44,857 nucleotides of DNA. It comes from Escherichia phage phiA2-1. Below, piece after piece: positions 10,670 through 21,467 of the stretch. Under the pieces are notes generated by a model, which was not told where the DNA came from, ran no database searches, and saw nothing but the letters and a program-made list of their open reading frames with translations. The stretch lies in the sequence record OR861626.1. One strand, 5' to 3'. The translations under genes and the position numbers were made by a program. Positions within the stretch are counted from its first letter, which is position 1. Each line of letters starts with the position of its first letter.

Positions 10670-11140
10670 ATGAACTGGAATTATGTTTTTGAGTATAGAG
10701 AGGGTGTTCTTTATTGGAAGGTAAAACCAGCCATACAATACAATATTGGCGATGTTGCTGGTTTCTTTTGTGAAAAGAGAGGTTACATAATCGTTCAATA
10801 CAGGCGTGTAAAGGTAATGGCCCATAGGGTTGTATGGGAAATGTTTAATGGAAGAATAGCTGATGACATGGAAATTGATCACATTGACCACTCTAGAAAA
10901 AACAACAACATATCAAACCTAAGACTGGTAACGAAGAGTGATAACATGAAAAACAAAAGCATGTACTCATCAAATAAAACTGGCGTTGTCGGGGTTAGTT
11001 ACTGCAAAACAAAGAAAAAATTTATATCAAAGATAGGTAAGAGAATTCTATTAACAACAAGCAATTTTGAAGAGGCTGTAAAAGCGAGAAAAATCGCAGA
11101 GATAGCCCTTAATTATCACAAAAATCACGGGAGTAAATAA
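10670..11140 (+). CDS. HNH homing endonuclease (HNH plus AP2-like DNA-binding region)
   Basis: Motifs HRVVWE, IDHIDH, NLRLV...N..N; AT-rich gene inserted between tape measure and tail protein M. Confidence 0.7.
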   Translation: MNWNYVFEYREGVLYWKVKPAIQYNIGDVAGFFCEKRGYIIVQYRRVKVMAHRVVWEMFNGRIADDMEIDHIDHSRKNNNISNLRLVTKSDNMKNKSMYSSNKTGVVGVSYCKTKKKFISKIGKRILLTTSNFEEAVKARKIAEIALNYHKNHGSK

Positions 11141-11492: not shown

Positions 11493-11497
11493 ACTAA

Positions 11498-11519
11498 GCC
11501 CCATTAGGGGCTTTTTTTA
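11498..11519 (+). terminator. Rho-independent terminator
   Basis: AGCCCC-ATTA-GGGGCT plus T7. Confidence 0.55.
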
Positions 11520-11531
11520 TTGGAGAAATAT

Positions 11532-12287
11532 ATGTTAAGTCCAAAGTTTGAAAATCAGTTGCAAAGCCTTTTCCCTGGAGAGATTGTGACTCTAATTCAG
11601 GTTGACGGCACGTCGTTTGGTTCTCGCGTTTACAATTTCCACAATGAGAACATTTCATACACACCTGAAGAAATCATGCTAGCCCAAATGAATGGCGAGC
11701 CACTACCAGAGAAAACCATCACCTTTCGTGGTGAAGAGTATGGCCCCAGACCTTTTGGTATCTCGGGCATCAATATGACCTCTGACGGCAAAGCCAACAA
11801 AGTGACGCTAACGGTGTCAAACGTAGACCAGCGCATTAGCGCATTGATTCGAACATACAACGGACTTGTTAAAGCTAAGGTTACCATCTGGATTACTACG
11901 CGAGATAACATCAATGAAGACGGAAGCATTGCTGATGGGGATTATCGCAGATTCGTTTACTTCATTGAGCGACCTAAGCAGGTTGATTACAAGACGGCAT
12001 CGTTTGAGCTAAGTAGCCCGATGGATATGGATGGTATTTACATTCCAGCAAGACTTGTTCAGTCTGTTTGCTACTGGGCTTCAAGGGGCTGGTATCGCAG
12101 CGGTAATGGTTGTGCTTATGCTGGTAATAGATACTTCAATAAGGATGATGAGCCAGTGTCAGACCCTTCATTGGATTTCTGCGCCGGAACGGTAAATAGC
12201 TGCAAGATTAGGTTTGGTGAGAATAATCAGTTGGATTTCGGTGGCTGCGCTGCAGCAAGTCTTCAGGCTAAAGCCAATCAATCATAA
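11532..12287 (+). CDS. Minor tail protein L (lambda gpL-like)
   Basis: Track ORF from 11520; ATG at 11532 after GGAG; ...TLTVSNV... motif resembling lambda L. Confidence 0.6.
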   Translation: MLSPKFENQLQSLFPGEIVTLIQVDGTSFGSRVYNFHNENISYTPEEIMLAQMNGEPLPEKTITFRGEEYGPRPFGISGINMTSDGKANKVTLTVSNVDQRISALIRTYNGLVKAKVTIWITTRDNINEDGSIADGDYRRFVYFIERPKQVDYKTASFELSSPMDMDGIYIPARLVQSVCYWASRGWYRSGNGCAYAGNRYFNKDDEPVSDPSLDFCAGTVNSCKIRFGENNQLDFGGCAAASLQAKANQS

Positions 12288-12311
12288 AAAAGGCCCCGAA
12301 AGGGGCCAAAA
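12286..12311. terminator. Bidirectional terminator between L (+) and rha-like gene (-)
   Basis: GGCCCC-GAAA-GGGGCC hairpin flanked by A-run and T/A-run. Confidence 0.5.
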
Positions 12312-12809
12312 TTACCATCCAAGAGTTAACTGTGCTTCCTTGTAAAGGTTCTCCATTTCTTCTTTCCGCTGCTTCTTGACCCTCTTCCACTCAGATAGTG
12401 TCTTTCCGCAACTGCTAGCAATCTCAACCTCTGACTTTAACGTTCCGATTAACTCATTGCATTTCTGCATTACTGATTTATTTTCTTCTTTATACTCCTC
12501 TTTAAGAATTCGCTCCATTTCGTTAAAAGCATTAATGTAAGCTTCCTTCCACTTTGCTGCCTCCTTTCCGGTAAAGCCCATTGCTAGGAATGAGAAACCA
12601 TCACGTGTAATGTCATAGCAATCTAACTTCTTGTTTTGCTTGGAAATATAAGATGAGGGCCGAAAATTAGGCTCTCTAAATTCTTCGCTACAATCAAGTC
12701 CTCGAATAGCATCAAGCACGTGCTTGTGCGACTTACCAAACTTTTCTGAAACATCCTTTGATGTGACTGTAATGCGACCATCTTTGCCTAAAGATACTAA
12801 ATCGTTCAT
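12312..12809 (-). CDS. Phage regulatory protein, Rha family (antirepressor-like)
   Basis: Track ORF 12312..12854; likely start ATG 12809 (MNDLVSL...); Rha-type motifs SEKFGKSHKHVLDAIRGL and FLAMGFTGKEAAKWKEAYINAF. Confidence 0.65.
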   Translation of the reverse strand: MNDLVSLGKDGRITVTSKDVSEKFGKSHKHVLDAIRGLDCSEEFREPNFRPSSYISKQNKKLDCYDITRDGFSFLAMGFTGKEAAKWKEAYINAFNEMERILKEEYKEENKSVMQKCNELIGTLKSEVEIASSCGKTLSEWKRVKKQRKEEMENLYKEAQLTLGW

Positions 12810-12853
12810 AATATACCTACCTGGTGAGTTGATTATTTGTTTATGGAGATTCA

Positions 12854-12882
12854 AATATAAAACTCCTAATAGGATTTGTCAA
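12854..12882 (-). promoter_or_regulatory. Sigma70-type promoter for the rha-like gene
   Basis: On minus strand: TTGACA, 17-nt spacer, TATATT, about 45 nt upstream of ATG 12809. Confidence 0.5.
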
Positions 12883-12905
12883 ATCTTAAAATCATAGAGG
12901 TGAAG

Positions 12906-13664
12906 ATGTTAACACCAAAAGTTAAACTGGAAATCTTCCAGCACGCAAAAGAAGTTTACCCGCACGAATGTTGCGGGGTTGTCACGCAGAAAGGTCGCGC
13001 GCAGAAATACCACAGAATCAAGAACGCCAGCAAAGACCCAGAGAATGAATTCATCCTTGATTCAAATGAGTATGCAGACGTTCTCTTTGAGTTGGCTCAC
13101 AACGAGTCAATTGTTTATGTAGTTCACTCTCATACAGGCGATGGAGCCACAACAAGACCAAGCCCAGCGGACATTTGCAGCTGCAATGAGTGCGAGATTC
13201 CTTACGTTATCGTCAGCATTCCGGAAGGAGACATGCGGATCCTTGAACCTTCAACCATGCCACTGATTGGTCGCCCATGGGGTCTTGGTAGCTTTGACTG
13301 CTGGGAGTTGGTAATGGCATTTCACAAGAAATACGGCGTCAAACTGAATGACTACCGCGTTAATTACCCGTGGTGGGAGAAGCGATACAATGAGAATATC
13401 TATGAAGACAACTGGATTAAGGAAGGATTTGAGCTAGTAAAAACTTCAGATATTCCTATTGGCTCAATGATTATGATGCAGGTTCAAAGTGAGGTGACAA
13501 ACCACGCCGGAATCTATATTGGCAACAACAGATTCATTCATCACCTTTATGGTAAAATGAGTTCAGTTGATATCTACTCCGATTACTGGCGAGAGCGCAC
13601 TGTGCGAATCGTTCGCCATAAGGATTTACCAGAGGATGTAATTTATGACCCAGAAACTGATTGA
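12906..13664 (+). CDS. Minor tail protein K (lambda gpK-like)
   Basis: Track ORF from 12876; ATG 12906 after GAGGTG; starts MLTPKVKLEIFQHA; HECCG and HSH motifs as in lambda K. Confidence 0.65.
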   Translation: MLTPKVKLEIFQHAKEVYPHECCGVVTQKGRAQKYHRIKNASKDPENEFILDSNEYADVLFELAHNESIVYVVHSHTGDGATTRPSPADICSCNECEIPYVIVSIPEGDMRILEPSTMPLIGRPWGLGSFDCWELVMAFHKKYGVKLNDYRVNYPWWEKRYNENIYEDNWIKEGFELVKTSDIPIGSMIMMQVQSEVTNHAGIYIGNNRFIHHLYGKMSSVDIYSDYWRERTVRIVRHKDLPEDVIYDPETD

Positions 13665-14217
13665 TATTAAGTTAGGCTTGTCTCTAGGCCGCAAGTTTGG
13701 AAAGATTCACCAGATGGCAGTGAATAGCGTGCCAGAGGCTATGCGAGCGCTTTGCTCTCAGATTCCTGCATTCAAGGAGTTCATGAGCAGCCACGTTGGG
13801 CAGAACACAAGATACGCAGTCTTTGTAGATGGTAAAAATGTGAACGAGCATCAAATCTCTGATTTTAGTGCCGTTCAGGAGATACGCATCTTGCCAATCC
13901 CGCAAGGCCGAAAGTCCGGCGGTTTGTTTCAGACAATTTTAGGTGCAGCGCTTATCACGGTTGGCATCTTCACTGGGCAGATTTATCTTGTTGGTGCTGG
14001 CGTATCTTTGGCAGCAGGTGGTATTTCCCAGCTACTCTCACCGCAGGCAACTGGATTAAAGACCCAGAACAACCAAACAAGCAACAGAGCATCTTACGCA
14101 TTTGGCTCGGCCGTGAACACTGTAGCTGCTGGTTATCCAGTTTGCCTTCCATACGGCTATCGAACTGTTGGCGGGTCTGTATTTAGTGCAGGCAGTTATA
14201 GTGAAGATATTTCTTGA
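13645..14217 (+). CDS. Tail assembly protein I (lambda gpI-like)
   Basis: 190-aa ORF overlapping K stop; Gly-rich hydrophobic C-terminal half; position between K and J. Confidence 0.5.
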   Translation: MTQKLIDIKLGLSLGRKFGKIHQMAVNSVPEAMRALCSQIPAFKEFMSSHVGQNTRYAVFVDGKNVNEHQISDFSAVQEIRILPIPQGRKSGGLFQTILGAALITVGIFTGQIYLVGAGVSLAAGGISQLLSPQATGLKTQNNQTSNRASYAFGSAVNTVAAGYPVCLPYGYRTVGGSVFSAGSYSEDIS

Positions 14218-14274: not shown

Positions 14275-14763
14275 ATGCAAAAATTCGAGAATTACCTTTA
14301 CGAGATTGATGGAAAGCTATACTGGAAGGAGGCGAGAAACAACTCGGCCAAAATAGAGTCAGAGGCTGGATTTATTCATCATTCTGGCTATAGGTATGTT
14401 AAATTGAATGACAAACAGACTTCATCTCACAGGATTCTTTGGTACTTAAGAAATGGATTCAAGATGCCACCTAAAGGCATGGAGATTGACCATATAAATG
14501 GAAACAGGCTTGACAACTCAGCTAGTAACTTACGGATTGTATCTTCATCGGTAAACTCAAAAAACAGGTCAAAAAGGTCAGATAACTCAAGCGGCGTTGC
14601 GGGAGTTGGATTTCATAAGTTAACTGGAACGTGGTGGGCTACGATATCAATAAACAAAAAGAGAAAGCACTTGGGGCTATTCGTTGATTGGTTTGAAGCA
14701 GTGTGCGCCAGAAAGAGCGCTGAGAACTTAAATGGTGAGTACACCTATAGACATGGTAAGTAA
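14275..14763 (+). CDS. HNH homing endonuclease (HNH plus AP2-like region)
   Basis: Motifs HRILWY, IDHINGN, NLRIV...N..N; inserted between I and J; inverted repeat AGTCACC/GGTGACT (14240..14270) just upstream of start. Confidence 0.7.
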   Translation: MQKFENYLYEIDGKLYWKEARNNSAKIESEAGFIHHSGYRYVKLNDKQTSSHRILWYLRNGFKMPPKGMEIDHINGNRLDNSASNLRIVSSSVNSKNRSKRSDNSSGVAGVGFHKLTGTWWATISINKKRKHLGLFVDWFEAVCARKSAENLNGEYTYRHGK

Positions 14764-14769
14764 AATCAG

Positions 14770-14792
14770 AACCCGCCTGGCGCGGGTTTTTT
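14770..14792 (+). terminator. Rho-independent terminator
   Basis: AACCCGC-CTGG-CGCGGGTT plus T-run. Confidence 0.55.
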
Positions 14793-19368: not shown

Positions 19369-19390
19369 AAATAAGGCCCTTAATGGGCCT
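19362..19390. terminator. Bidirectional terminator-like hairpin
   Basis: AAGGCCC-TTAAT-GGGCCTT between convergent genes. Confidence 0.4.
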
Positions 19391-19565
19391 TCTTGTTAAA
19401 ACAATATCCAGCTGGTAAAACCGAATAAAGATTTTGATTTACCTCTCCATTGCTGTATTCACAACCTCTAATTGTAACTGAGTAGTCACTGATAAGAACT
19501 ATAGTTCTTTCACCGCCTGAACAACCAGCTAAAATCATTGCAGTGATAACGATTAATTTTTTCAT
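19380..19565 (-). CDS. Small outer-membrane lipoprotein, Cor-like superinfection-exclusion candidate
   Basis: 61 aa; lipoprotein signal MKKLIVITAMILAGC (lipobox LAGC); last gene of a minus-strand operon. Confidence 0.45.
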   Translation of the reverse strand: MKKLIVITAMILAGCSGGERTIVLISDYSVTIRGCEYSNGEVNQNLYSVLPAGYCFNKKAH

Positions 19566-20166: not shown

Positions 20167-20832
20167 CTACTTATCTTTAAGTAGCAACTTGATATCAATT
20201 CCTAGATTATTCTCAATCAATCCAGTCAGTGCACCTACCTTTTCCTTAAGTGCGAAGCACTGTGTTTCATACTTGAATCTCAACTCCATCTCATCAGAGC
20301 GACTTGACCAGCACTGCCGAGCCTCGCACGCTAGCTCATCAATCTTCTTGTCAAGTTCCTTATCTGACAGGGTGATTTCAGTAATTCGCTGCTCAGCTAC
20401 GATTCTCTGGATCAAGTGAGCATTCTGCGCTTGCAGGTATCCATTCTTCATTCTTTCCTCTTTAAGTTCATCAATGCTTACCATCTGACTGATTACTTCC
20501 GCTTGCTTGTTGATGGTGCTTTGCATTTCTTTAAGCTTAGCAAGCACTGCGCGACGAACGAACTTTGATTCTCTCATCCCAATCAAAAGCATCTGTTCCA
20601 TATTGAGCACTGGTGAGTTGATTGACTTTCTATAACCTCCTCTACCCTCACTCTTGATTACGAAACTTTCGTAGTCAAACTCAAACCCTTCAAGCTCATC
20701 CTCTATTCTCTCAACAAAGTCATTGTGTCGAACATTGGACTCCCCAGCGATCAACCTCGCTGGGTTGATAACTTCATTTAAAAACTGATAACTATTCATT
20801 TTTACGTCTTCATTAAGTAATGCTAAGTTCAT
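20167..20832 (-). CDS. Rha-family-like regulatory protein with coiled-coil C-terminal half (putative)
   Basis: Track ORF to 20856; likely start ATG 20832; SNVRHNDFVERIEDEL and MLLIGMRESKFVRRAVLAKL resemble Rha motifs. Confidence 0.4.
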   Translation of the reverse strand: MNLALLNEDVKMNSYQFLNEVINPARLIAGESNVRHNDFVERIEDELEGFEFDYESFVIKSEGRGGYRKSINSPVLNMEQMLLIGMRESKFVRRAVLAKLKEMQSTINKQAEVISQMVSIDELKEERMKNGYLQAQNAHLIQRIVAEQRITEITLSDKELDKKIDELACEARQCWSSRSDEMELRFKYETQCFALKEKVGALTGLIENNLGIDIKLLLKDK

Positions 20833-20856
20833 TTTCGTCTCTCTTTTGTTTTTCAT

Positions 20857-21467
20857 TCCTAAGATTTGAGGAGTTAACTAAGTTCTTTTCCTCAATTTGA
20901 GGAGGAGTTGACAGCACCATTGCCGCCACGCGCCTAAATATACCTAAAGATAGCCAGTTGTCTTTAGCAAATCGTGCTATTTATCGACAATTTCACCATA
21001 AATCACAGTTACACGTAACCGATGTAACTCGATGTATACAATCTCATCCGCGGGAAATGATATACGCGCTGTTACGCCAATTTACGCATTGGTTACATTA
21101 AAATATCTATATATATCAACCTTTTACTCTTATTATTATTATTATATATATTACTGTGTATATCATGTAACTACTTCTATAGAGTGTTCCGGTTATAATT
21201 TTAATATCATGTGGATTTATACAGTATTGCGCGGCAGCTATACCAATGCACCCTCAGCGAGAAACGGCATACACGATATACACGATGTTTACATTGAGCT
21301 ATGGCTGGCTTGAGATGCCAAAAAGCGTAACTAGTGCCAATGCCTACACGAAATTACAAAGATTCACGCGTAAACTTAAATCAACGATTTGCAAAACCAA
21401 TTGGACTGGTTACGGTGCTGAATATATAGTTACCTCATCGAAAGCAATCAACCAGAGAGATATATAA
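20857..21467. promoter_or_regulatory. Large AT-rich divergent control region with (TTA)n and (TA)n tracts
   Basis: 611 nt without a credible ORF; (TTA)5 near 21127..21145; TATATATAT; palindrome CCTCAAATTGAGG; separates minus-strand block from plus-strand early block. Confidence 0.4.
20920..20981 (-). promoter_or_regulatory. Promoter-like cassette (minus orientation) for the 20832 gene
   Basis: Minus strand AATAGCACGATTTGCTAAAG, 22 nt, TATATT. Confidence 0.45.

What the first reader, a model, noticed from the sequence alone, without database searches (positions are those of the whole stretch)
12312..12882. Rha-family regulator encoded antisense inside the tail operon with its own near-consensus sigma70 promoter
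Between tail genes L and K, a Rha-family gene runs on the opposite strand, bracketed by a bidirectional terminator and a TTGACA-17-TATATT promoter. A second Rha-like gene lies at 20167..20832. Rha proteins are usually linked to lysogeny control or host-dependent growth interference, yet no integrase or repressor is visible here. A convergently transcribed host-promoter-driven gene inside the late operon also implies transcriptional interference with K/I/J expression.
Basis: partly seen in the sequence, partly recalled or inferred. Interest (0 to 1): 0.55.

Follow-up and report, generated by a model that had tools for sequence, protein, structure and literature searches.

The report
Self-contained Rha regulator cassette in tail operon
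A virulent T1-like coliphage carries, between two tail genes and pointing the opposite way, a small foreign gene for a Rha-family regulator with its own host-type promoter and stop signal: a real, selectively maintained add-on ("moron") of unknown role, already annotated in public records.

Summary
The window is Escherichia phage vB_EcoS-IME253 (Drexlerviridae, Rtpvirus). The gene is real: 12312..12809 (-), 165 aa, with an N-terminal pRha domain (Pfam 1.3e-31; TIGR02681 92 bits) and a C-terminal ORF11CD3 domain. GenBank already calls it a Rha protein.

It lies in a 618-bp, low-GC insert that exactly replaces the 10-nt L-K junction of relatives. The insert carries the window's only 11/12 sigma70 match with a 17-bp spacer (TTGACA-17-TATATT) and a strong hairpin terminator.

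- **Terminator:** it is one-directional. A T-run follows it only on the Rha strand.
- **Recurrence:** homologues 84-61% identical sit antisense in the same L/K slot in other T1-like backbones. They keep the -35 hexamer, the leader and the terminator. Replacement changes are few while silent sites are saturated.
- **Origin:** homologues about 55% identical head the rightward early operon of lambdoid-like contigs and share promoter sequence. This suggests gene and promoter moved together.
- **Second gene (20167..20832):** it fails every Rha model. It is the positional counterpart of a gene that carries a pRha domain in sister phages. Here the N-domain resembles the P1 antirepressor Ant.

Most likely this is an early, host-polymerase-driven accessory DNA-binding regulator, insulated from late transcription. 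Interference with K/I/J expression is untested. Interest is modest.

The parts
12288..12905 (-). The whole inserted cassette (618 bp): terminator, Rha gene, leader, promoter, plus a new ribosome-binding site for K on the other strand. It replaces the 10-nt L-K junction (GGAGAGATAA) of Rha-less relatives.
   Evidence: Alignment with the empty site of phage UALMA_PCEc3. GC is 38.7% against 45.0% for L and 44.5% for K, the 7th percentile of 618-bp windows.
12286..12307 (-). Intrinsic terminator of the Rha transcript: hairpin GGCCCC-UUUC-GGGGCC (12307..12292) followed by UUUUUU (12291..12286, overlapping the stop codon of L). On the plus strand the same hairpin is followed by AAAAUU, so it is not predicted to stop L-to-K transcription.
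   Evidence: Terminator scan lists it on the minus strand only. Fold energy -14.4 kcal/mol, z -3.3. An equivalent hairpin plus T-run is present in L008, L011, L012 and L015.
12312..12809 (-). Rha-family protein gene, 165 aa. Residues 15-100 are the pRha domain (predicted winged-helix-like fold); residues 112-163 are the ORF11CD3 domain (two long helices).
   Evidence: Pfam PF09669 1.3e-31 and PF10549 1.5e-8; TIGR02681; phrog_518 4e-57. AlphaFold N-domain model pLDDT 91. pN 0.08-0.28 against pS 0.63-0.77. GenBank APU93255 'Rha protein'.
12810..12853 (-). Region between the -10 hexamer and the start codon. It holds the predicted transcription start (about 12847) and the leader, with a conserved block TGAATCTCCAnAnACAAA and a Shine-Dalgarno AGGT upstream of the ATG.
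   Evidence: Upstream region is 67-87% identical between loci (52-54% in pairs with L011, whose called region is 20 nt shorter), whereas third codon positions are 43-61% identical. The start site is predicted, not measured.
12854..12882 (-). Sigma70-type promoter TTGACA-17-TATATT.
   Evidence: The -35 is invariant in five T1-like loci. The -10 varies (TATATT, TGTATT, TAGATT); the TAGATT versions are preceded by TGC, an extended -10. The spacer and -10 sequence TAGGAGTkTTATATTT is shared with lambdoid-like contigs.
12864..12874 (.). Palindrome TCCTA-T-TAGGA inside the promoter spacer; a candidate operator (speculative).
   Evidence: Only occurrence in the window. L015 has TCCTATAGGA, and the half-site TCCTAT is invariant in the five T1-like loci.
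12897..12908 (+). Ribosome-binding site GAGGTG and ATG of tail gene K, supplied by the right end of the insert.
   Evidence: Sequence; K annotated from 12906; alignment with the empty site.
20167..20856 (-). It has a P1-Ant-like N-domain plus a Drexlerviridae-specific C-terminal domain of about 115 aa. It is not part of the cassette.
   Evidence: No Pfam or NCBIfam hit; phrog_8235 6e-83; similarity to P1 Ant1. Sister-phage orthologues carry a pRha N-domain at about the Pfam threshold, E 2e-8 to 9e-7. hhalign against Rha gives 5% probability. It is preceded by the phage's own repeat element at 20962-20980.

Best explanation
This is an autonomous accessory cassette of the kind called a 'moron': promoter, one gene, terminator. 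It is inserted exactly between the stop codon of tail gene L and the ribosome-binding site of K, in inverse orientation.

Inferred mechanism:
1. On infection, unmodified host sigma70 RNA polymerase fires the near-consensus promoter. The roughly 560-nt transcript ends at the intrinsic terminator just before L.
2. The product is a 165-aa protein. Its N-terminal pRha domain (winged-helix-like) binds DNA, and its C-terminal pair of long helices (ORF11CD3) probably mediates self-association.
3. It acts in trans as an early regulator. The targets are unknown. The palindrome in its own promoter is a candidate autoregulatory site, and host or resident-prophage promoters are candidates too.
4. The inverse orientation and one-way terminator insulate the gene from the late operon. 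Late L-to-K read-through, which K apparently needs, would produce RNA antisense to Rha and so confine Rha to the early phase.

Shown here: the anatomy; family membership; insertion into a variable slot; conservation of gene, promoter, leader and terminator at the same slot in distant T1-like phages under purifying selection; and promoter similarity to an early operon of lambdoid-like phages.

Inferred only: transcription timing, DNA binding, dimerisation, targets and benefit to the phage.
For: - Identity and annotation: the window is 100% identical to IME253, where the gene is annotated 'Rha protein'.
- Family. The N-domain is 38.8% identical to P22 Rha, E 1e-11.
- Variable slot: the L/K junction is empty in UALMA_PCEc3, holds an HNH endonuclease in Rtp, a 117-aa ORF in ACG-M12 and SU57, and Rha in IME253, ZL19 and Rao1. 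Cassette GC is low, like the HNH inserts.
- Promoter and terminator.
- Same slot and orientation elsewhere: homologues 84, 81, 62 and 61% identical sit there in metagenomic T1-like contigs, 29 contigs checked. Their tail proteins L and K are 54-83% identical to IME253's and their tape-measure proteins 41-87%. The backbone of L012 matches ~50-kb E. coli T1-like phages that lack the cassette.
- Selection: pN 0.08-0.28 with pS 0.63-0.77, saturated. The non-coding upstream region is more conserved than third codon positions.
- Origin: homologues 54-56% identical are the first gene of the rightward early operon (followed by a replication protein, DnaB, NinB, NinG), divergent from a leftward operon that carries RecT/YqaJ in one contig and Sipho_Gp157 in two. 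Their promoter is TTGCAA-17-TATATT and shares TAGGAGTGTTATATTT.
- Host polymerase: T1-like phages encode no RNA polymerase or sigma factor (PMC11447400).
Against: - No transcript data exist, so promoter use, timing and termination are all predictions.
- The promoter match alone is not beyond chance genome-wide, and in L008 the -10 is poor (TGTATT).
- Many relatives are named 'anti-repressor', which would mean protein-protein action rather than DNA binding.
- The candidate operator palindrome is intact in only two of the five loci.
- The function of Rha proteins is unknown even in phi80 and P22.
- The cassette is rare: 3 of about 117 related cultured phages. Any benefit must therefore be conditional.
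Confidence: 0.6

Rival explanations
1. Antirepressor acting on resident prophages or satellites. The protein binds and inactivates a repressor, by protein-protein contact, as soon as the virulent phage infects. This would induce or disarm co-resident lambdoid prophages or their defence genes.
For: PHROG relatives are labelled anti-repressor: phrog_373, phrog_63 and phrog_10324. Many tblastn hits in temperate phages are annotated antirepressor. pRha is one of the interchangeable N-domains of AriS-like phage regulators (PMC9043618). The nearest non-T1 relatives come from lambdoid-like early regions.
Against: The domain experimentally tied to activity in AriS-type proteins (ANT/KilAC, SOS-inhibitory activity) is absent; the C-terminus here is ORF11CD3. 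'Anti-repressor' labels are annotation transfer, not tests. In the lambdoid-like contigs the homologue sits where a Cro/CII-type DNA-binding regulator would sit.
Confidence: 0.15
2. One reading: the important part is the promoter, not the protein. Convergent firing from a strong host promoter inside the late operon throttles or times expression of K/I/J by polymerase collision or antisense RNA.
For: The arrangement is convergent, and no convincing plus-strand promoter for K lies inside the insert, so L-to-K read-through must cross about 560 nt of opposing transcription. Orientation is antisense in every locus seen. The promoter and leader are conserved.
Against: The coding sequence itself is under strong purifying selection, so the protein matters. 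Most relatives express K/I/J without the cassette. The constant orientation can be explained by a single ancestral insertion spread by recombination. Interference would be a cost rather than an obvious benefit.
Confidence: 0.12
3. Selfish passenger. The cassette persists by hitch-hiking in a recombination-tolerant intergenic hot spot, as the HNH homing genes do, and gives the phage nothing.
For: The same slot holds HNH endonuclease genes in Rtp and XT34. GC is low, like the HNH inserts. Rha alleles do not track the backbone: L015's backbone is close to IME253's but its Rha is 62% identical, while L008's backbone is distant but its Rha is 84% identical. A mosaic breakpoint lies at the left edge of the cassette.
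Against: There is no nuclease, transposase or recombinase domain, so it has no means of homing. An inert passenger would not be expected to keep its ORF, promoter, leader and terminator intact across saturated silent-site divergence.
Confidence: 0.1

Closest known systems
Rha of phages P22 (orf201) and phi80
   Same: Same N-terminal pRha domain: 38.8% identity to P22 Rha over residues 10-104, E 1e-11; Pfam and TIGRFAM thresholds passed. Both are accessory genes lying inside a late or structural operon rather than in an immunity region. P22 rha sits between the lysis genes and terminase.
   Different: P22 rha is co-oriented with the late operon, is 201 aa and belongs to a temperate phage. Here the gene is inverted, has its own promoter and terminator, is 165 aa with an ORF11CD3 C-terminus, and sits in a virulent T1-like phage. 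The defining phenotype, growth inhibition in IHF-deficient hosts (as summarised in PMC4936722), is untested, and no IHF site was found nearby.
Morons of lambdoid phages (concept of Hendrix and colleagues; from my own knowledge, e.g. HK97/HK022 tail-region morons, lambda bor and lom)
   Same: One extra gene with its own promoter and terminator. It is present in some genomes and precisely absent at the same junction in close relatives. Its base composition differs, and it sits among tail genes.
   Different: Classical morons are expressed from the prophage and benefit the lysogen. This phage has no lysogenic state, so the cassette must act during lytic infection.
Rha/ORF11CD3 genes at the head of the rightward early operon in lambdoid-like metagenomic phages (L016-L018)
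   Same: Same two-domain architecture and length (163 aa), 54-56% identity, and a related promoter (TTGCAA-17-TATATT with shared spacer and -10 sequence).
   Different: There the gene leads a replication operon, the position of Cro/CII in lambda. Here it is an isolated monocistronic unit in the tail module.
Modular phage regulators and antirepressors with interchangeable N-domains (AntA/B, Bro-N, pRha) such as Listeria AriS and P1 Ant
   Same: pRha is one of the interchangeable N-terminal modules (PMC9043618). The window's other gene, gp64, shows just such an N-domain swap between sister phages.
   Different: The ANT/KilAC effector domain is absent from both proteins of this window.

Membership tests
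Rha family (Pfam PF09669 / TIGR02681), gene 12312..12809 | Profile match above the curated threshold | tested here: met
   PF09669: 109.4 bits against 29.9, full-length domain 1-91 of 91. TIGR02681: 92.4 bits against 45.95.
Rha family (Pfam PF09669 / TIGR02681), gene 12312..12809 | Direct similarity to the type member, P22 Rha | tested here: met
   tblastn of residues 10-104 gives 38.8% identity, E 1e-11, to NC_002371.2 39701-39994, inside the annotated rha gene.
Rha family (Pfam PF09669 / TIGR02681), gene 12312..12809 | Rha phenotype: blocks phage growth in IHF-deficient hosts; expression controlled by IHF | not testable with these tools
   Needs plating on himA/himD hosts. No IHF consensus (WATCAAnnnnTTR) lies within 11500-14000.
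Rha family, second gene 20167..20856 | Profile match above the curated threshold, or significant profile-profile match to Rha | tested here: not met
   No PF09669 hit even at E<=10. No NCBIfam hit. hhalign against the Rha alignment gives probability 5.4%, E 0.007. Only sister-phage orthologues (P0146, P0151, P0154) carry pRha, at about the threshold (29.8-35 bits against 29.9), and in a different N-domain.
Moron (autonomous accessory cassette) | Present or absent at one precise junction among close relatives | tested here: met
   618 bp replace 10 nt between the L stop codon and the K ribosome-binding site. Only 3 phages among 117 related records carry it.
Moron (autonomous accessory cassette) | Own promoter and own terminator | tested here: inconclusive
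   Sequence motifs are present and conserved. Actual transcription was not measured.
Moron (autonomous accessory cassette) | Base composition different from the flanks | tested here: met
   38.7% GC against 45.0% and 44.5%.
Antirepressor of the Ant/KilAC type | ANT/KilAC domain (PF03374) | tested here: not met
   Absent from both proteins. It is present only in distant relatives of gp64's N-domain (P0188-P0195).
Free-standing homing endonuclease | Nuclease domain (HNH, GIY-YIG, LAGLIDADG and others) | tested here: not met
   Only pRha and ORF11CD3 were found. The HNH_3 genes of the window are separate ORFs at 10670..11140 and 14275..14763.
Known anti-phage defence protein (PADLOC) | Match to a defence-system model | tested here: not met
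   No hit.

The most novel reading that the evidence does not exclude
The cassette is a lytic-phase 'moron' that virulent T1-like phages captured, promoter included, from the early control region of lambdoid-type phages. Its Cro-position regulator would be made in the first minutes of infection to bind operators of resident lambdoid prophages or satellites, or of the host. That would silence their defence or exclusion genes, or block their induction. Its obligatory antisense placement would form a convergent-transcription switch that turns it off once late transcription starts. This would be an example of a virulent phage using a borrowed temperate-phage regulator as an inter-phage weapon with a built-in timer.
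Probability: 0.12. Interest if true: 0.65.

Novelty: new member of a known kind. Interest (0 to 1): 0.3.

Why it matters
Rha-family proteins are very common in phage genomes, yet their normal function is unknown even in P22 and phi80. Here the gene is isolated in a simple monocistronic unit in a virulent, easily grown coliphage; Rao1 plates on MG1655. Natural isogenic-like relatives lack the unit, which gives a clean system for asking what a Rha protein does during lytic growth.

It also shows that moron-type cassettes, usually discussed for prophages, are selectively maintained in strictly lytic T1-like phages. The L/K junction emerges as a recurrent landing site for accessory genes.

For phage therapy screening, the point is practical. 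A 'Rha' or 'anti-repressor' annotation in such a phage is not evidence of a temperate lifestyle.

Tried and rejected
- **Structure search with the full-length model:** the long helices dominated and the matches were uninformative. I re-modelled the N-domain alone.
- **PDB sequence search with the family profile:** nothing meaningful.
- **Recent donor in E. coli genomes:** only about 74% identity over 109 nt of the domain core. Among cultured phages the next relatives are 44% identical or less.
- **Cassette more conserved than its flanks (IME253 vs ZL19/Rao1), as a sign of mobility:** rejected. The 100% block extends right through K, I, HNH and J, so this is ordinary mosaicism with a breakpoint at about 12243-12300.
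- **IHF site near the gene:** none.
- **Plus-strand promoter for K inside the insert:** only a 9/12 match at 12784-12812. Its conservation is explained by the Rha start-codon context.
- **Other copies of the promoter palindrome as possible targets:** none in the window.
- **IMG/VR scan for more L/K-slot copies:** it returned only IME253 itself and distant relatives.
- **Literature on Rha in Drexlerviridae or IME253, and on T1-like transcriptomes:** nothing relevant.
- **PADLOC defence models:** no hit.
- **Direct BLASTP between the two 'Rha-like' proteins:** E 5e-4, but the alignment is out of register and lies mostly in the helical tails, so it was not accepted as evidence.

Full report
**What the window is.** A 4-kb stretch around the finding is 100% identical to Escherichia phage vB_EcoS-IME253 (KX130960 / NC_047810; Drexlerviridae, Braunvirinae, Rtpvirus). 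The record's 74 CDS include no integrase or repressor. The gene in question is already annotated there as 'Rha protein' / 'Rha-like transcriptional regulator', and the second gene as 'KilA protein' / 'anti-repressor'.

**The observation.** The minus-strand ORF is real.
- The mechanical ORF, 12312..12854, starts at a TTG that lies inside the -10 hexamer.
- The ATG at 12809 is preceded by AGGT, and all homologues begin MNDLV. The gene is therefore 12312..12809, 165 aa.
- Residues 15-100 match Pfam Phage_pRha end to end (1.3e-31; 109 bits against a cut-off of 29.9). Residues 112-163 match ORF11CD3 (1.5e-8).
- TIGR02681 gives 92 bits against 46, and phrog_518 'Rha-like transcriptional regulator' gives 4e-57.
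- The N-domain is 38.8% identical to that of P22 Rha (E 1e-11).
- The flanking genes are tail L (Phage_tail_L, 9e-45) and K (Prok-JAB + NlpC/P60).

**Promoter.** TTGACA-17-TATATT at 12882..12854 is the only 11/12 match with a 17-bp spacer on either strand of the window and ties for the best sigma70-like site overall. Taken alone, such a match is expected 0.39 times per window. Its weight comes from its position, 45 nt upstream of the start codon, and from its conservation (below).

**Terminator.** The hairpin at 12292..12307 (-14.4 kcal/mol) is followed by UUUUUU on the Rha strand. On the L-to-K strand it is followed by AAAAUU. It is therefore a one-way terminator, not a bidirectional one.

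**It is an insert in a variable slot.** In phage UALMA_PCEc3 the stop codon of L and the ATG of K are 10 nt apart (TAAGGAGAGATAAATG). In IME253, ZL19 and Rao1 those 10 nt are replaced by 618 bp (12288..12905). The insert holds the terminator, the gene, the leader, the promoter and a new ribosome-binding site for K.
- The same slot holds an HNH endonuclease in Rtp (rtp40) and a 117-aa ORF in ACG-M12 and SU57, both co-oriented with the tail genes.
- Only 3 phages among 117 related records carry Rha there.
- The insert is 38.7% GC against 45.0% for L and 44.5% for K, much like the window's two HNH genes.
- It lacks the phage's own repeated intergenic element ATAGCACnnnTTGnTAAAA. That element, described for phage TLS in PMC11447400, occurs 19 times in the window against 2.1 expected, including upstream of gp64.

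**It is old, recurrent and selected.** The large protein collection holds homologues 85-81% and 62-61% identical. Every one whose contig I read sits between L and K on the opposite strand:
- P0003: three contigs.
- P0008: one contig.
- P0009: one contig.
- P0010: 24 contigs.

These backbones range from close to distant. Their tail proteins L and K are 54-83% identical to IME253's and their tape-measure proteins 41-87%. One backbone matches ~50-kb E. coli T1-like phages that lack the cassette. Another has no megablast match among cultured phages.

Replacement differences are few (pN 0.08-0.28) while silent sites are saturated (pS 0.63-0.77). The non-coding upstream region is 67-87% identical between loci (lower only in pairs with L011, whose called region is shorter) while third codon positions are 43-61% identical. 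The -35, a TCCTAT block, the TGAATCTCC start region and the Shine-Dalgarno are all kept. Where the -10 is weaker (TAGATT) it is preceded by TGC, an extended -10. The terminator hairpin and T-run are present in all.

Rha alleles do not track the backbones. L015 has a close backbone but a 62% Rha; L008 has a distant backbone but an 84% Rha. The cassette has therefore been exchanged between lineages, presumably by recombination in the conserved tail genes.

The 100% identity of the cassette between IME253 and ZL19/Rao1 is not special. The identical block runs on through K, I, HNH and J, with a breakpoint at about 12243-12300.

**Where it came from.** No close donor exists in 5,426 complete E. coli genomes or among cultured phages, where the next relatives are at most 44% identical and are temperate Pseudomonas and Vibrio phages. 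At 54-56% identity the homologues leave the tail slot. In three lambdoid-like metagenomic contigs, a 163-aa pRha+ORF11CD3 gene is the first gene of the rightward early operon. It is followed by a replication protein, DnaB, NinB and NinG, and it diverges from a leftward operon that carries RecT/YqaJ in one contig and Sipho_Gp157 in the other two. Its promoter, TTGCAA-17-TATATT, shares the string TAGGAGTGTTATATTT with the IME253 promoter (TAGGAGTTTTATATTT). This suggests that promoter and gene moved together from such an early control region.

**How it probably works.** T1-like phages encode no RNA polymerase or sigma factor (PMC11447400), so a near-consensus sigma70 promoter should fire as soon as the DNA enters.

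I therefore infer a DNA-binding, probably self-associating regulator made early. A palindrome TCCTA-T-TAGGA lies in the promoter spacer and nowhere else in the window. It is intact in only two of the five loci, so autoregulation is a suggestion only.

No convincing plus-strand promoter for K exists inside the insert. K therefore probably depends on read-through from L across the cassette. That read-through necessarily generates RNA antisense to Rha late in infection.

**The second gene.** 20167..20832/20856 (-) has no Pfam hit even at E<=10 and no NCBIfam hit. It matches phrog_8235 'anti-repressor' (6e-83).

Its homologues form a Drexlerviridae family with a conserved C-terminal domain of about 115 residues and two alternative N-domains. 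Many sister phages (vB_EcoS-12397IV, ESCO41) carry a pRha domain scoring at about the Pfam cut-off (E 2e-8 to 9e-7). IME253 and its nearest relatives instead carry a domain resembling residues ~121-232 of the P1 antirepressor Ant1, which is fused to KilAC in other proteins.

The two N-domains share a motif pattern (RH..V/F, L...L..G.....R..V...L.E). The profile-profile test against the Rha alignment is in register but not significant (probability 5%, E 0.007). 'Rha-like' is thus true of the gene's orthologues but not demonstrable for this copy.

**Comparison and verdict.** The gene is a bona fide Rha-family member, and the unit fits the definition of a moron apart from measured transcription. 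It is not an Ant/KilAC antirepressor, a homing endonuclease or a known defence protein. P22's own rha is likewise an accessory gene inside a late operon, but co-oriented. pRha proteins also occur in other virulent phages such as ICP1.

The finding is real and tidy but of an established kind, and it is already annotated. What is new is:
- its recurrence at one slot across T1-like lineages;
- its conserved regulatory flanks;
- its likely origin from a lambdoid-type early operon.

The function remains unknown. Interest is modest (0.3).

Noticed in passing
window 6588, 10598, 19737(-), 20962(-), 22634, 24971, 26973, 29464, 30146, 32056, 36457(-), 37503(-), 40077 and others: The 19-nt core of the 21-nt direct-repeat element described for phage TLS (ATAGCACnnnTTGnTAAAA; function unknown) occurs 19 times at 3 or fewer mismatches, against 2.1 expected. 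The copies lie mostly just after or before genes. None lies in the Rha cassette. One lies upstream of gp64.
   Followed up: partly
window 20167..20856 (-) and proteins P0122-P0184: The gp64 family shows an N-terminal domain swap between sister Drexlerviridae: pRha in some, a P1-Ant-like domain in others. The swap sits on a conserved C-terminal domain of about 115 aa with no Pfam family.
   Followed up: partly
window 19380..19565 (-): A 61-aa lipoprotein-like ORF downstream of the tail fibre region matches the PHROG 'Cor superinfection exclusion protein' (7e-5). This fits the cor gene known in T1-like phages.
   Followed up: no
window 10670..11140 (+) and 14275..14763 (+): Two HNH_3 endonuclease genes are inserted in the tail module, with low GC (34.8% and 40.3%). 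The first is absent from ZL19 and Rao1. The L/K slot holds another HNH gene in Rtp.
   Followed up: partly
window ~12243..12300: A mosaic breakpoint between IME253 and ZL19/Rao1. The L gene and sequence to its left are about 88% identical or less. Everything from the cassette through K, I, HNH and into J is essentially 100% identical.
   Followed up: yes
window 11496..11513 (+) and 14768..14790 (+): Strong plus-strand terminator-like hairpins lie between M and L and between the HNH gene and J. L-Rha-K-I-HNH may therefore form one terminator-bounded unit, like the 'transcriptons' proposed for T1.
   Followed up: no
L016 4890-5010, L017, L018 (lambdoid-like metagenomic contigs): No cI/Cro-type gene is called within 5 kb of the divergent early promoters. 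The Rha/ORF11CD3 gene occupies the Cro/CII position, directly upstream of the replication genes.
   Followed up: no
L004 1751-2104 (ACG-M12 gp34) and L005 1720-2073 (SU57_00039): A third kind of occupant of the L/K slot: a co-oriented 117-aa ORF annotated variously as hypothetical, virion structural or putative tail fibre protein.
   Followed up: no
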